Assembly (NCBI GenBank): GCA_951406725.2
Contig: OX597822.1
Coordinates: 76,260,001 to 76,324,000, forward strand
DNA from: Octopus vulgaris
Taxonomy: Eukaryota
DNA: 64,000 nucleotides
Direction of reading: 5' to 3'
Shown here: positions 15,740 through 56,480 of the stretch, in pieces
How positions within the stretch are numbered: position 1 is the first letter of the stretch
How the letters are laid out: each line of letters begins with the position of its first letter
Notes under the pieces: model-generated
What the model was told of the DNA's origin: nothing
Database searches by the model: none
What the model saw: the letters and a program-made list of their open reading frames with translations, nothing else
Made by a program: the position numbers and the translations under genes

Positions 15740-15918
15740 TTTTTTCTCTCCTTCTTTCTGTGTTTTTTTCTCTCTGTGTATCTTTCTGTTGAAGAGCGTA
15801 GGCTCGAAACGTTAAAGACTTGTTTTATTTATATTTCCTGAGCGCCATACTAATACAATTGTTCGTTTGTTTTCCACCTGCCTTCGTCTTTTGTCTATTT
15901 TCATAAAGCTTCCCGTTA
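15740..15918 (+). mobile_element. Short hammerhead-bearing element (family H) inside a (TA)n field
   Basis: tcttt-CTGTTGAA-gagc gtag gctc-GAAA-cg-tt-aaaga at 15781-15818, followed by conserved ctgagcg...ctaataca...cacctg.cttcgtctttt. Confidence 0.75.
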
Positions 15919-18624
15919 TATGTATGTATATATATATATGTGTGTGTGTGTGTATGTATATATATGTATGTATATATGTATGTATATATATGTATATATG
16001 TATGTATATATATATGTATATATGTATGTATATATATGTATATATATATATATATGTATGTATATATGTGTACATATATATATTTATTCATATATATGTA
16101 TATATGTGTACATATATATATGTATTCATATATATGTATATATGTATATTAAAAGAGGTCCGTAGGAATTCTCGTTTAAATAAAATGGTTGGGGACCGCT
16201 GTGAAAAGATCGGGATTTATGTTTTTGCTAGAAATAGCAGTCACATTTCCAACATTCCCTACACTCTTACAAATAGAAACAACCAATTGGATAATGGTTT
16301 CTTTTGGTATAGTCCTAAGGAGTGCAATGAAGACGTCACGGCTGGAAGACTCAATTATGGCTGACCTGGGGCTAAACAATAACAGCGACAACAGTTGATC
16401 AATTTGCGCTCTTATGTTTTACAACAGAATTTATTAATACACACACACACACTTACGTTCACACGCATGCACATACACACATGTACACAGGCACACAGAC
16501 ATATACACACACTCACGCACACGCACACACACACACACACACATACACATATAGACATGCACACATACACACACACACACATGCATATACACACTCACGC
16601 ACACATACACTCACACACACACGCTCACACACACATGCTCATATGCACACACACACATAGTATATATATACACACGTACGCACATACACGCACTCACGAG
16701 TGCACACACACACACACACGCTCACACACAGAAACACACTCACACACAAGCACATGCACACACACACACACATGGGCACACACACAAACACACACACACA
16801 ATCAATTTTATTCTCCGTTAGCATTTTTTCTTTCTATCAATCGCTTGTTTTCTTTTCTCCTTCTCTCTTTTCCTCTCTTCCTTCCACACCTTGTTCAACG
16901 TTCTTTCTTTCTTTCTCTCTTGTAAATTATAAATTCACACACACACACACACGCACACACACACACGCGCACGCACACACACGCACACACACACGCGCAC
17001 GCACACACACGCACACACACACTGCCATATCTTAATCCATCGTCCATTCACGTGTAACCCACGCTCTATACTAACATTCATTTTCGAGCCAATGAAGGAG
17101 CATCAACGTGATCGCTCCTCCTGCTAGAAATAACAACCAAATTTCCCTCAAATCACTCACAGCCGTCTGAAAATGACATGTCGGATAAACTGGTCAGGAA
17201 AATGACGGAATGGTCACGGTTAGAACGTCTTTGAACATACGTTTGCTCCATCAGGGTTGATTGCGGATAAATAACAACAGCAGCTTCATATAGGCGCATG
17301 CGTGGCTGTGGTAAGAAGCTTGCTTCCCAACCACATGGTTCTGGGTTCAGCCCCACTGCAAAGCAACTTGAGTACGTTCCTTCTACTATAGCCTCGGGCC
17401 GACAAAAGCCTTGTGAGTGGATTTAGTAGACGGAAACTGAAAGAAGCCCATCGTATATATATATATATATATATGTGTGTGTGTGTGTATGCACTCTTTT
17501 CTTTTACTTGCTTCAGTCATTTGACTGTGGCCACGCTGGAGCACCGACTTTTGTCAAAGAAATCGACCCTAAGACTTATTCTCTGTAAACCTAGTGCTTA
17601 ACCTATCTGTATCTTTTGTCGAACCGCTAAGTTAAGGGGACATAAACGCACCAACATCGGTTGTCAAGCGATGGTGGGTGAACAAACACAGGCACAAATA
17701 CATACATATATATTTTTTTTTTCATGTGTGTGTCTTTGTGTCTGTGTTTTCCCTCACTCCACCTTCGCTTGACATCCAATATTGGTCTGTTTGCATCCCC
17801 ATAACTTAGCGGTTCGACAAAAGAACTGATAGAATAAGCACTAAGCTTGCAAAGAATAAGTCCTGGGGTCGATTTCTTCGACGAAAAGGCGGTGTTCCTG
17901 CATGGCCACAGTCAAATGACTGAAGCAAGATAAAAGATAAAGATATATTTATACCAGCGGCGACTCCGGCACACGGGTTGTTCACACTTATCCCAAGTAT
18001 CAATTTAGTAAAGTGTATTCTGCCAAAACTGACTTCAAGTATGTAATTGCAAACAATAACTTGGGCTTCTTTTATTGAGCCTGGTCGCAATTCCTTTATT
18101 TTCGTTCAGCGTCTGGCGGTCGTCGAAGTGGTGCCCAATGTTAAAAAACAGTATTTGTTGCAGACGTTCTCTCGACATTGTTCCTATGCGCCTGACTCGG
18201 GCTCAGAAGTTACAGTCCGAGTTGTTATCTATAATCGTAAAAATTAAAAGTAATTCAAATTCAATGTTTTCTTGAAATAATGAACTTCTATAGAGATTAG
18301 GATTTAAATTCCAATCTATGAAAAGTTGCCGTTCTACAATATTCTTAAAGGAACGAAAAATTATCCAGCAACTAGGGCTAATACGAACGAGCCTGGTAGA
18401 TATAAAAGACTTACTGACATCTCTTGTCAAGAGTAGAAGGCGTCAGTCTTTTCGCCGATGTTTGTTGTGCACTCCACTGTTGTTATTTGATTGCTGTCAT
18501 CCAGCAACTGGGTAAAAACTAAGCGACTGTTAGATCGCTGATATTTGTTGTGCATTCTGCTGTCGTCATTTGACTCCTGTTATTATGTGCGTTTGTGTGT
18601 AAAGATCAGTTGTGTTTTGCTGGG

Positions 18625-19072
18625 TTACTCTTTACTCTCTTTTACTTGTTTCAGTCATTTGACTGCGGCCATGCTGGAGCACCGCCTTTAGTCGAGCAAA
18701 TCTACCCCGGGACTTATTCTTTGTAAGCCCAGTACTTATTCTATCGGTCTCTTTTGCCGAACCGCTAAGTGACGGGGACGTAAACACACCAGCATCGGTT
18801 GTCAAGCAATGCTAGGGAGACAAACACACACACACAAACACACACACACACACACACACACACACACACACACATATATATATATATATATATATATATA
18901 TATATATATATACGACAGGCTTCTTTCAGTTTCCGTCTATCAAATCCACTGACAAGGCATTGGTCGGCCCGGGGCTTTAGCAGAAGACACTTGCCCAAGA
19001 TGCCACGCAGTGGGACTGAACCCGGAACCATGTGGTTGGTTAGCAAGCTACTTACCACACAGCCACTCCTGC
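18625..19072 (-). mobile_element. SINE family A, full length, low divergence
   Basis: Complete head, linker and tail. Confidence 0.92.
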
Positions 19073-19486
19073 TTTATTTTTACCCTTAACTTTAAAATGG
19101 AGAAAGCCATAGTGTGCTAGATATAAAAAATAAGCCCTTTGGGACGAAATCTGTGATGATCCCGAGTGACGCTAATGACCTGGAAACGCCTCTGATTTAT
19201 ACACAAGATACAGGCATGTTTGAACGATTAAGAAGTTTCTTTTTCAACCATGTGGTTTCGGGCTCAGTCCCACTGCGCAGCAGCTTGAGCAAATATCTTC
19301 CACTATCGATTCGGGCCGACAAATGTCTTGTGAGTCCTTTTGGTAGACAGAAACTGTGAGGAAGCCCGTCGAACATGCACGGATATGTCCTCGTTGAGGT
19401 TTATCCAAGTTCTTCTTTCAGGAGATTAAGCCCGTTGCTATCAAAGTAACGAGAATTAAGACAATAATTCTCGGGGTTTGTAAATA

Positions 19487-19709
19487 CCGGGTTGGCCAAA
19501 AGTCACCTGACAGTAAATTAAAAGCCATTTAATTCCAAGATTTATTTATGAATGAATTTAATAAAAACATCTAAATATGAAACATCATGAAAATTGATCA
19601 AACTGATGTCCTTCTGGGGCGAGACATTTTTCCACTCAAGTCCATACAGAATTACAGATAGTGCTTATGGAATTTTGATTTACTGTCGGGTGACTTTTGG
19701 CCATCTCTA
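19487..19709. mobile_element. Tc1/mariner-type MITE
   Basis: TIRs ccgggttggccaaaagtcacctgacagtaaat / atttactgtcgggtgacttttggccatctcta with TA flanks. Confidence 0.8.
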
Positions 19710-19762
19710 TATGTGGTTGAGTTAGTGTGTGTATATATGTAGATTTATGAGCCTACACGTAT

Positions 19763-19900
19763 ATGAATATGCCTCGTTATGTGAATATGCCTCGTTATGT
19801 GAATATGCCTCGTTATATGAATATGCCTCGTTATGTGAATATGCCTCGTTATGTGAATATGCCTCGTTATGTGAATATGCCTCGTTATGTGAATATACCT
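19763..19900. repeat. 18-bp minisatellite (gtgaatatgcctcgttat), about 7.5 units
   Basis: Directly visible, near-perfect units. Confidence 0.95.
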
Positions 19901-54927: not shown

Positions 54928-55041
54928 TACTTGTACCTTTGAACATAGAACCAGCGAACAGAAAAAATACGAGGGTGCCTGACCCTAGCAAATGACAACA
55001 GGAAAAGGTAGGGGTGACCAAGAAAATATATAACGTAAGAA

Positions 55042-55254
55042 GGCGGCGTTGGCAGACTTGTTAGCGGGCGAAATGCTTAGCGGTATTTCGTCTGTCGTTA
55101 CGTTCTGAGTTCAAATTCCGCCGAGGTCGACTTTACCTTTCATCCTTTCGGGGTCGATAAATAAAGTACCACTTTCGCACTGGGGTCGATGTAATCGACT
55201 TAATCCCTTTGTTTGTCCCCTCTATGTTTAGCCCCTTGTGGGCAATAAAGAATT
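55042..55254 (+). mobile_element. SINE family B with a 16-bp TSD
   Basis: atatataacgtaagaa at 55026-55041 and 55255-55270. Confidence 0.92.
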
Positions 55255-55639
55255 ATATATAACGTAAGAATTTTCGCTTCGAGTTTGTGTCAGCGAATCC
55301 ACCATCCGTTCCATTTGTAACGAACGTTATAATTCATTTATTAGTCTTTTTTTTTTCTTACGACATCCTCCCCCATGACAAACGTGGAAAGATGTACCAT
55401 ATGTGCCCGCGGTTTCGAATACAATTCAGTGTATCATTATTTGTTTTTATTTAACGTTTTGATTTGCAGTGGTAGGTGTGACAGCTGATGAGGGTATAAT
55501 TTATGTATTTGGTCAAATCGCAAATGCCTCCGCCCCAACGGTGTCCGATACGAAACACTGCTGACCCCGTCTTCAAGAGATATGGATTCGACTGTCAGTA
55601 CTTTTTCATCTGACCAATGCAATCTTACAGGCTCTAGAG

Positions 55640-55872
55640 CAATGTTTCCCAACCTATGTTCCTCCAGGCCCCACTATAACTTCCCAGAAAAATGTATACT
55701 CCATCGGTGGTTGGAAAAAAAGTATGGGTGTTGTATGTTTGCTGTGAAAAAAAGATTTCCACAATTCCATGTCCCACTAAGAGAAAAACCCAAAAATTTT
55801 GGATCCCATATCCCACCACAATTTTCCTCATGCCTCACTGGTGGGGCGTATGCCTTACGTTGGGAATCACTG
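55640..55872. mobile_element. hAT-like MITE
   Basis: TIRs caatgtttcccaac / gttgggaatcactg; 8-bp flanks ctctagag / ctcttggg. Confidence 0.72.
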
Positions 55873-56272
55873 CTCTTGGGTATACTAGACAATACTGTTT
55901 TCATTCAATAGGAAACTGAAAGAATCCCGTCGTATATATATATATATATATATATATATATATATATATATATATGTGTGTGTGTGTGTGTGTGTGTATG
56001 TATGTATATATATTTATGTGTGTGTATGTATGTTTGTCCCTCCATCGCTTGACAACCGATCTTGGTGCGTTTATGTCACCGAAACTAGCGGTTCGGCAAA
56101 ATAGACCAATAGAATAAGTATTAGGCTTACAAATAATAAGTCCTGAAGTGGGGGAGATTTCTTCGACTAAAGCATGGCCGCAGTCAAATCACTGAAACGT
56201 GTAAAAGAGTAAAACACTAATACACATCTAAGCTACTTCATTAATAGTCAACCGTCCGTTCATTAGAACTAT

Positions 56273-56480
56273 ATCATGGATAGATCGCTAGCCACTAAAC
56301 CTGTTTCTATTTTCTCTCCCTGTTTATTTCTGTATTCCTTTCTGTCGAAGAGCACAGGCTCGAAACGTAAAAGACTTTCTCACTTCCCGAGCGTTAAACT
56401 AATACATATGTTTGTTGTTTACACACCCGTCTTCGTCTTTTGTTTTTTGTTTTTTTCTTTTTGTACATTCTCACTATATC
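56273..56480 (+). mobile_element. Hammerhead-bearing element family H
   Basis: cttt-CTGTCGAA-gagc acag gctc-GAAA-cg-TA-aaag at 56338-56373; actatatcatgga occurs at both ends. Confidence 0.78.

What the first reader, a model, noticed from the sequence alone, without database searches (positions are those of the whole stretch)
15781..56373. Dispersed element family with a minimal hammerhead ribozyme whose core is consistently CUGUNGAA (A6U)
Seen: four separate ~200-bp copies (cores at 15786, 51506, 51977, 56342) share stem I (cttt/aaag)-CTGT[T/A/T/C]GAA-GAGC[loop]GCTC-GAAA-CG-TH, with the copy at 51977 mutated at the cleavage triplet. Most variation falls at the free N7 position and in the stem II loop (gtag/atag/acag), while the stem II pairs are unchanged. 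Three of the four copies abut (TA)n. Known: the hammerhead core is CUGANGA...GAAA...UH, and Penelope pseudo-LTRs and metazoan retrozymes carry minimal type I hammerheads with palindromic stem III that cleave as dimers (ACGU here). Inference: this is a non-autonomous Penelope-dependent or retrozyme-like family that amplified with U at the normally conserved A6, which standard motif searches would miss.
Basis: partly seen in the sequence, partly recalled or inferred. Interest (0 to 1): 0.8.

Follow-up and report, generated by a model that had tools for sequence, protein, structure and literature searches.

The report
Octopus repeat with U6 hammerhead ribozyme
An abundant ~200-base octopus repeat, likely the tail of a Penelope-like jumping gene, carries a hammerhead-shaped RNA motif with U instead of the normally essential A at core position 6 in nearly all copies, while its other positions vary as a working hammerhead's would, so it is likely a weakened self-cutting RNA whose activity is untested.

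Summary
Confirmed: four copies carry CUGU-N-GA-A-GAGC-loop-GCUC-GAAA-CG-UH (0 chance matches in 100 shuffles). A fifth copy is 5'-truncated and lacks the motif. The host is an Octopus vulgaris-type genome. In contigs of three public runs, A at position 6 makes up only 0.07-0.5% of depth. N7 takes all four letters, and H17 takes A/U/C with G under 2%. This is the hammerhead pattern of constraint, so U6 is a family trait rather than decay. A common 3' end ~100 nt past the cut site, ragged 5' ends, TA targets and one 13-bp target duplication point to solo 3' ends of a Penelope-like element; rough extrapolation gives ~10^5 copies. Not shown: cleavage, expression, non-autonomy, a partner ORF, or stem covariation within the family. 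A retrozyme reading lacks support, as no tandem arrays were seen. Published A6 substitutions are weak, and a U4A subfamily also spread. I found no natural A6U in the papers I could search, but Lünse 2017 was unavailable. The scan had noted other Penelope hammerhead core variants (mostly U3-A8) elsewhere, not this one. Verdict: a new variant of a known kind.

The parts
15740..15914 (+). Copy 1 of the repeat, shortest 5' end among the motif-bearing copies, inside a (TA)n/(TG)n run; ends approximate
15782..15817 (+). Hammerhead-type motif of copy 1: stem I 15782-15785/15814-15817, core from 15786 (U6, N7=U), predicted cut after 15813 (GUU)
14690..14754 (+). Copy 5: 3' part only, starting about 35 nt downstream of the cut site, no hammerhead, inside (TA)n; 87% identical to copy 1
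51422..51629 (+). Copy 2, longest 5' end, inside (TA)n; used as reference for public runs; ends approximate
51502..51537 (+). Hammerhead-type motif of copy 2: stem I 51502-51505/51534-51537, C3 51506, U6 51509, N7 51510, extra A 51513, stem II 51514-51517/51522-51525, G12 51526, palindrome ACGU 51529-51532, H17 51533
51602..51609 (+). Conserved GTCTTTTG block that can pair with the bases at and after the cut site (51532-51539); possible competitor of stem I, a lead only
51914..52101 (+). Copy 3; motif core at 51977 with U6 but C at 16.1, so no NUH site; independent insertion next to (TA)n, not a tandem partner of copy 2
56281..56472 (+). Copy 4; motif core at 56342 (U6, N7=C, loop ACAG, predicted cut after 56369)
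56268..56280 (+). 5' target-site duplication of copy 4 (13 nt, of which 2 may be microhomology)
56473..56485 (+). 3' target-site duplication of copy 4

Best explanation
The repeat is a dispersed octopus family whose copies share a hammerhead-type motif with U at core position 6 and end about 100 bases past the predicted cut site; it is likely the 3' pseudo-LTR of a Penelope-like retroelement, likely copied into TA-rich DNA by target-primed reverse transcription, and the motif is likely a weakened ribozyme that would cut slowly, as a dimer or with help from the element's protein. Shown: the motif, U6 as the family norm, freedom at N7 and H17, fixed 3' and ragged 5' ends, TA targets and one target duplication. 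Also shown: every motif-bearing copy keeps both sides of the cut site in order, so these copies did not come from RNA left cut there. Inferred: Penelope origin and mechanism, selection on the hammerhead fold in the source elements after U6 arose, and residual catalysis. Most genomic copies are likely inert.
For: (1) The architecture matches the published PLE min-HHR consensus NNN-CUGANGAH-G..C-GAAAN-palindrome-NUH except at position 6. The Acropora Neptune motif in that figure has a near-identical stem II and the same ACGU. (2): T>A at position 6 is 0.07% (X6), 0.50% (X8) and 0.52% (X20) of summed contig depth. N7 shows C 10-18%, G 10-28% and U 28-48%. H17 shows U 25-43% and C 0.3-10%, and A>G at H17 is under 2% in all three runs by the per-kind counts. 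Five of the 6 listed non-CpG variants inside the 28-nt motif fall on N7 or H17 (P = 3e-5 if uniform over 22 sites; 2e-3 if 5 hidden rows also lay in the motif). (3) In the 4 window copies, core plus stem II columns are invariant in 18 of 19, against 54 of 111 flank columns (Fisher P = 8e-5) or 47 of 73 3'-flank columns (P = 0.006). (4) The cut site lies 96-105 nt from the 3' end; in the anole Poseidon element the cut is at +26 and reverse transcription starts at +111-118. (5) TA insertion bias is usual for several PLE clades, and most PLE min-HHRs occur as single motifs of truncated elements. (6) PLEs are 6.83% of the O. vulgaris genome. (7) The anole element's HHR cuts only with protein, and uncut RNA is the main template. 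(8) A natural A6C hammerhead keeps low activity.
Against: There are no cleavage data. Single changes in the CUGA turn gave low activity, and no second change rescued them except the C3-G8 swap. A6C cut Mg2+-dependent cleavage sharply. A U4A variant makes up 7.4% of depth in X20, so a second core change could still spread. There is no compensatory change in stems I or II within the family. No ORF or autonomous partner is linked, and the window's own PLE remnant shows no real DNA similarity to the family (best E 0.015, low-complexity). Whole-copy folds do not favour the hammerhead (stem I probability 0.40 or less), though the A6 control family did no better (mean 0.04 over 62 loci). In one search, 9 variant rows were hidden, so a U6C minority is not excluded, and contig depth is not a copy count. 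The only raw-read run (X22) gave 6 reads; the 5 covering position 6, from 2 start places, carry A6, along with a broken stem II pair and a broken palindrome.
Confidence: 0.6

Rival explanations
1. Same Penelope-type origin, but the U6 motif no longer cuts; the hammerhead-shaped fold is kept only as a handle for the element's protein or as an RNA-folding signal.
For: CUGA-turn mutants are poorly active. HHR catalysis is not needed for insertion in vitro in the anole element. A U4A subfamily spread in X20. U6 lets a short monomer close U4.G16.2/G5-C15.2/U6-A15.1 (G5-C15.2 probability 0.29-1.0 in copies 1, 2 and 4, against 0.08 or less with A6).
Against: H17 varies among A, U and C but G stays under 2%, and N7 is free, as the cleavage rule predicts; the H17 pattern rests on only two changes. 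The alternative helix is worth only 0.2-0.7 kcal/mol in copies 2 and 4 and mostly vanishes in whole-copy folds.
Confidence: 0.25
2. U6 is a neutral founder mutation in one successful source element, and the rest of the motif looks conserved only because the family is young.
For: Family-wide fixation follows automatically from one master copy. Many flank positions also show no variant at 2% or more.
Against: Window copies are only 72-81% identical. The motif is far more invariant than the flanks. Variants inside the motif concentrate on N7 and H17. U6 holds in runs with clearly different subfamily mixes (X6/X8 versus X20).
Confidence: 0.07
3. A non-LTR retrozyme that replicates through small circular RNAs cut by the ribozyme.
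For: Size (~200 bp), low GC and a type I motif fit loosely. Solo retrozyme monomers exist, and retrozymes derive from PLE pLTRs.
Against: There is no head-to-tail array in the window. One search lists three skip joints and no go-back joint, although contigs of such repeats are short. Retrozymes carry canonical type I HHRs in tandem repeats, and minimal motifs are assigned to PLEs. Fixed 3' and ragged 5' ends with a target duplication fit linear templates.
Confidence: 0.05
4. A SINE-like element whose conserved block is a DNA-level RNA polymerase III promoter; GGCTCGAAAC resembles a B box (consensus recalled, not from a call), and the hammerhead likeness is incidental.
For: The sequence resemblance is visible directly. 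Octopus genomes are rich in SINEs.
Against: The same ten bases occur in the canonical-core coral-like hammerhead family. Stem I, the C3-G8 pair, the palindrome and the N7/H17 freedom are not explained by a promoter. Rfam found no tRNA- or 5S-like head in copy 2.
Confidence: 0.03

Closest known systems
Minimal type I hammerheads (min-HHRs) of metazoan Penelope-like elements (Cervera & De la Peña 2014, PMC4209133), closest the Acropora digitifera Neptune motif
   Same: Short stem I, an extra nucleotide between 9 and 10.1, G10.1-C11.1, 4-bp stem II, no helix III beyond a 4-nt palindrome (ACGU), NUH site, U-rich 5' flank, and occurrence as dispersed single copies.
   Different: U instead of A at position 6, fixed across the family; all 56 motifs of their Fig. 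S3 have A6, though their descriptor required it. The rough copy number (~10^5) is above the 2,000-9,000 per genome they report. No linked ORF has been shown here.
Poseidon element PAc of Anolis carolinensis (Frangieh et al. 2024, PMC11167929)
   Same: HHR in the terminal repeat with the insertion end roughly 85-105 nt past the cut site; AT-rich targets; inserted DNA spans the uncut site.
   Different: PAc has a full ORF that begins at stem II, and measured protein-assisted cleavage. Here there is no ORF and no assay, and the core has U6.
Natural A6C hammerhead of phage Bcep176 (Perreault 2011, PMC3088659; Naghdi 2020, PMC7151607)
   Same: A natural substitution at core position 6.
   Different: C rather than U; a single phage motif rather than a large retroelement family; shown active (slow in Mg2+, better in Mn2+).
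Metazoan non-LTR retrozymes (Cervera & De la Peña 2020, PMC7229834; Li et al. 2026, bioRxiv 10.64898/2026.07.22.740005)
   Same: Small non-coding repeats with a type I HHR and a likely PLE link.
   Different: Retrozymes are tandem arrays with canonical HHRs that give circular RNAs. These copies are dispersed, 5'-truncated, minimal and U6.
Hydra-1_Obim and other Hydra-clade PLEs (Craig et al. 2021, PMC8557442)
   Same: Octopus PLE with (TA)n preference and an HHR near the 3' end.
   Different: A6 in all 34 rows of their File S2 and a longer palindromic helix III in the Hydra clade. Two family-specific strings had 0 hits in that supplement.

Membership tests
Hammerhead ribozyme (type I, minimal) | Core C3 U4 G5, G8 A9, G12 A13 A14, A15.1-U16.1 | tested here: met
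   Invariant in 4 of 4 window copies except U16.1 in copy 3; only U4A (7.4% in X20) is listed at 2% or more in public runs, with 9 rows hidden
Hammerhead ribozyme (type I, minimal) | A at position 6 | tested here: not met
   U in 4 of 4 window copies; A in 0.07-0.52% of depth in three contig runs
Hammerhead ribozyme (type I, minimal) | Stems I and II can form; C3-G8 pair | tested here: met
   35 of 36 cells paired (97.2%) versus 31-53% when partners are slid; the structure was derived from these sequences, so this is weak
Hammerhead ribozyme (type I, minimal) | Compensatory changes in the stems | tested here: inconclusive
   0 of 9 pairs change on both sides in the window, and no stem II variant is listed above 2%; stem I differs but still pairs in the coral-like A6 family (71 of 76 UH-bearing loci with at least 2 of 3 pairs)
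Hammerhead ribozyme (type I, minimal) | NUH cut site (H not G) and free N7 | tested here: met
   H17 = A/U/C, A>G under 2% in 3 of 3 contig runs; N7 shows all four letters
Hammerhead ribozyme (type I, minimal) | Site-specific self-cleavage | not testable with these tools
   Needs an RNA assay; no RNA holder with raw reads was listed
Penelope-like element terminal repeat (min-HHR type) | Extra nucleotide at 9/10.1, G10.1-C11.1 and palindromic 15/16 segment | tested here: met
   A at 51513, G51514-C51525 and ACGU, against the features listed
Penelope-like element terminal repeat (min-HHR type) | Common 3' end near the HHR, variable 5' truncation, AT-rich target | tested here: met
   3' ends lie 96-105 nt past the cut in 4 of 4 copies; five different 5' ends; 4 of 5 copies in TA-type runs and the fifth with a target duplication at TATA
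Penelope-like element terminal repeat (min-HHR type) | Linkage to an RT + GIY-YIG ORF | tested here: inconclusive
   None next to the five window copies; no genome held; the window's PLE remnant is a different family; one search did not display 5' loose ends
Non-LTR retrozyme | Head-to-tail tandem repeats, each with an HHR | tested here: not met
   None in the window; no go-back joints among the 3 joints listed (short contigs limit this)
Non-LTR retrozyme | Circular RNA from ribozyme cleavage and ligation | not testable with these tools
   No raw RNA reads available
Non-LTR retrozyme | Canonical type I HHR with loop-loop contacts | tested here: not met
   The motif is of the minimal PLE type
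Rfam hammerhead families | Match to a curated covariance model | tested here: not met
   0 matches at E up to 10 for 51440-51625; I did not test whether an A6 minimal motif would score, so this is not specific to U6

The most novel reading that the evidence does not exclude
CUGUNGA is a genuinely active hammerhead core that works with the Penelope protein, as a dimer, or with a different metal preference. It has been amplified to about 10^5 copies in octopus, making it one of the largest ribozyme-motif families in an animal genome and one that A6-based searches cannot see. It would show that the supposedly invariant uridine turn can be rewritten and kept under selection.
Probability: 0.3. Interest if true: 0.75.

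Novelty: new variant of a known kind. Interest (0 to 1): 0.52.

Why it matters
If the motif cuts, it widens the natural hammerhead core at a position that mutagenesis treats as essential, and descriptor-based counts have missed a very large family. If it does not cut, it is a natural test of an open question: whether Penelope hammerheads are kept for cleavage or for their shape (raised in PMC4209133, PMC8557442 and PMC11167929). A U6 versus A6 pair in the same short RNA makes either outcome cheap to test.

Tried and rejected
No whole genome is held, so no genome-wide covariance model or ORF linkage test was possible. One search listed no RNA holder on record. X6, guessed to be RNA, has variant shares nearly the same as X8, so it says nothing on expression. 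X22, the only raw-read run laid, gave 6 reads in 1,934 million letters and cannot stand for the host genome. A scan neutral at position 6 found no member of this family: viral contigs 0, metagenomes 83, prokaryote genomes 3. Of those 86, 79 have A6, and the 6 with U6 and 1 with C6 all lack UH and look like chance hits. No PLE ORF was recognised next to those loci. Rfam gave no hammerhead among the 150 of 360 window matches shown and none for copy 2. Reading 51428-52105 as a tandem dimer was rejected (79% identity, unrelated spacer). The idea that U6 locks the monomer in an off-state is weak energetically. The long-range helix over the cut site is inconsistent between copies (probability 0.00-1.00) and shows no two-sided change. 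The PLE remnant at 7050-9332 was tested as a partner and not supported; its protein had no Pfam hit and no longer homolog. Lünse et al. 2017 (small PLE hammerhead variants) could not be read. Scan notes by sequence, place and relatives were empty.
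Full report
Observation. The pattern CTGTNGAAGAGCNNNNGCTCGAAACG matches exactly at 15786, 51506, 51977 and 56342, nowhere else within 3 mismatches, and in 0 of 100 shuffles. The copies are 72-81% identical over 129-213 nt, and a fifth copy at 14690-14754 keeps only the 3' part. Numbered on copy 2, the motif reads C3 U4 G5 U6 N7 G8 A9, an extra A, stem II GAGC/GCUC, G12 A13 A14, A15.1 C G U16.1, H17, closed by stem I CUUU/AAAG. 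Copy 3 has C at 16.1. A window ORF is 99% identical to a predicted Octopus vulgaris protein over 70% of the query, so the host is O. vulgaris or a very close relative. No whole genome was held.

Is U6 the family norm? I laid four public runs on copy 2 at 80% likeness. Three contig sets held the family (4,467, 8,474 and 8,417 records laid). At position 6, A accounts for 565.8 of 775,626 (X6), 4,568 of 922,338 (X8) and 11,911 of 2,287,391 (X20) summed depth, or 0.07%, 0.50% and 0.52%. Variants at the neighbouring N7 are detected at 10-48% each, so this is not a blind spot of the alignment. X6 and X8 have nearly the same variant shares, while X20 differs, so this is about two independent genomes rather than three. 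There are limits. Nine variant rows were hidden, and the per-kind counts leave 1-2 unlisted T>C places per run, so a small U6C share is not excluded; every listed row reaches at least 3% in some run, which suggests the hidden ones are smaller. Sister families under 80% alike would be missed. Depth is not a copy count. The fourth run (X22, raw reads) gave only 6 reads; the 5 covering position 6 begin at 2 places and carry A6, together with G>A changes that break a stem II pair and the palindrome. This looks like one decayed copy, but it is unexplained and counts against a fully fixed U6.

Is the motif under hammerhead-type constraint? In the window, core plus stem II columns are invariant in 18 of 19 cases, against 54 of 111 in the flanks (P = 8e-5) and 47 of 73 in the 3' flank alone (P = 0.006). 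In the runs, N7 takes all four letters and H17 takes A, U and C, while A>G at H17 stays under 2% in all three. Of 6 listed non-CpG variants within the 28-nt motif, 5 fall on these two positions (P = 3e-5; 2e-3 if five hidden rows lay elsewhere in the motif). The sixth is U4A, at 7.4% in X20 only. So lineages that already carried U6 went on changing where a hammerhead may change. This shows constraint on the fold; it does not prove catalysis. There is no covariation within the family: 0 of 9 pairs change on both sides.

What kind of element? All four motif-bearing copies end 96-105 nt past the predicted cut. The five 5' ends differ. Four of five copies sit in TA-type microsatellite, and copy 4 has a 13-nt target duplication. 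In the anole Poseidon element the cut is at +26 and reverse transcription starts at +111-118, AT-rich DNA is preferred, the ribozyme cuts only with protein, and uncut RNA is the main template (PMC11167929). Cervera & De la Peña describe PLE min-HHRs with the extra nucleotide, G10.1-C11.1 and palindrome seen here, mostly as single motifs of truncated elements, with low activity even as dimers (PMC4209133). Their Acropora Neptune example has a near-identical stem II and ACGU with A6. My scan of metagenome and genome contigs, neutral at position 6, returned 86 loci. Of these, 79 have A6 (76 with UH, mostly one family resembling that coral motif), and the 7 with U6 or C6 all lack UH; none is this family. 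The simplest reading is solo 3' ends of a Penelope-like element. Whether the source is autonomous is open: no ORF is linked in the window, and the PLE remnant at 7050-9332 is a different family with a canonical core. The retrozyme reading lacks its defining tandem arrays. Four copies in 64 kb extrapolate to about 175,000 in 2.8 Gb (95% range 48,000-450,000, assuming even density). Summed depth divided by the depth of the longest contigs gives 76,000-330,000, a use the tool warns against. An order of 10^5 is a rough inference.

Would it cut? Evidence against: in comprehensive mutagenesis, single and double changes in the CUGA turn were poorly active except the C3-G8 swap (PMC9901934). A6C lowered Mg2+-dependent rates by orders of magnitude in one ribozyme (PMC7151607). 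The U4A subfamily also spread. Evidence for residual activity: natural A6C still cuts, and cuts well in Mn2+; PLE ribozymes can need protein; and the N7/H17 pattern above. Folding models do not decide it. U6 permits an extra short helix in isolated motifs, but it is worth 0.2-0.7 kcal/mol in copies 2 and 4. Whole copies rarely fold stem I, as also holds for the A6 control family. A conserved 3' block can pair over the cut site, but inconsistently. I put the weakened-ribozyme reading at 0.6 and the dead-fold reading at 0.25.

Prior record. All 56 motifs in Fig. S3 of PMC4209133 and all 34 rows of File S2 of PMC8557442 have A6; both sets came from descriptors built on that core. Full-text searches were: hammerhead + A6U (2 of 3 listed); A6C or core variant (8 of 8); CUGUNGA-type strings (20 of 35); hammerhead + Octopus + Penelope (4 of 5); and (15 of 194). 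None showed a title or abstract start about a natural U6 core or this family; I did not open the listed papers. A 2026 O. vulgaris repeat annotation mentions no ribozyme in its main text, and its one held supplement (5,371 characters, no sequence library seen) lacks the motif. The repeat itself may well be in that study's library, Repbase or Dfam, which I could not see. Lünse et al. 2017 was not available; I know it only by its citation and a review's statement on dimers, and it or its supplement could hold U6 cases. Supplements of the bioRxiv preprint were not available.

What I read. PMC4209133: main text parts 1-2 of 4 and supplement parts 1-2 of 3. PMC11167929 and PMC7151607: parts 1-2 of 4. 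bioRxiv 10.64898/2026.07.22.740005: part 1 of 5 and passages. PMC8557442: passages, supplement searches and supplement part 2 of 59. PMC13282606: passages and a supplement search. PMC3088659, PMC9901934, PMC6765202, PMC7229834, PMC11014351, PMC6962438, PMC8967140: passages only. The Pol III B-box consensus is recalled, not from a call.

Verdict. It is a new core variant of a known kind of motif, with U6 shown to be the family norm under hammerhead-like constraint; its activity, expression and parent element remain untested. Interest 0.52.

Noticed in passing
window 7050-9332: Young-looking remnant of a separate Penelope-like element: 235-nt inverted terminal arms 99% complementary, ORF pieces 7267-8286 and 8205-8597 (GIY-YIG lead: Atlas cluster with PF01541 in 11% of members, score 0.94; thumb resembles the Hydra alignment by eye), and a canonical CUGAAGA hammerhead at 9193 with an 8-nt palindrome, mirrored in the left arm.
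   Followed up: partly
window 51507 (run X20): A U4A variant makes up 7.4% of depth in X20 but 0.08% in X6 and X8: a lineage-specific subfamily with a second core change.
   Followed up: no
window 51509, 51522, 51531 (run X22): Five raw reads from 2 start places carry A6 with a broken stem II pair and palindrome, in a run that otherwise barely holds the family.
   Followed up: partly
window 51532-51539 with 51602-51609: The bases at and after the cut site can pair with the conserved 3' block GTCTTTTG in all four copies; copy 3's two changes keep the pairs by one-sided changes.
   Followed up: partly
window 51554-51558: A second GAGC(G) downstream could pair with the 3' strand of stem II plus G12; T51554C (10-11% in X6/X8, 87% in X20) would turn a U.G pair into C-G.
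   Followed up: no
L001-L083 (e.g. L007, L011, L039): A coral-like family with the same stem II and canonical A6; many loci have an inverted partial copy directly upstream of the motif.
   Followed up: partly
window 24379-24497: 5S rRNA-like sequence (Rfam RF00001, 71.4 bits).
   Followed up: no
window 33254-33718: Likely coding exon, 99% identical to an uncharacterised Octopus vulgaris predicted protein.
   Followed up: partly
whole window; tandem at 10585-11066: Other dispersed repeat families reach about 20 copies in 64 kb, and one unit occurs as a 179-bp tandem of 2.6 copies.
   Followed up: no
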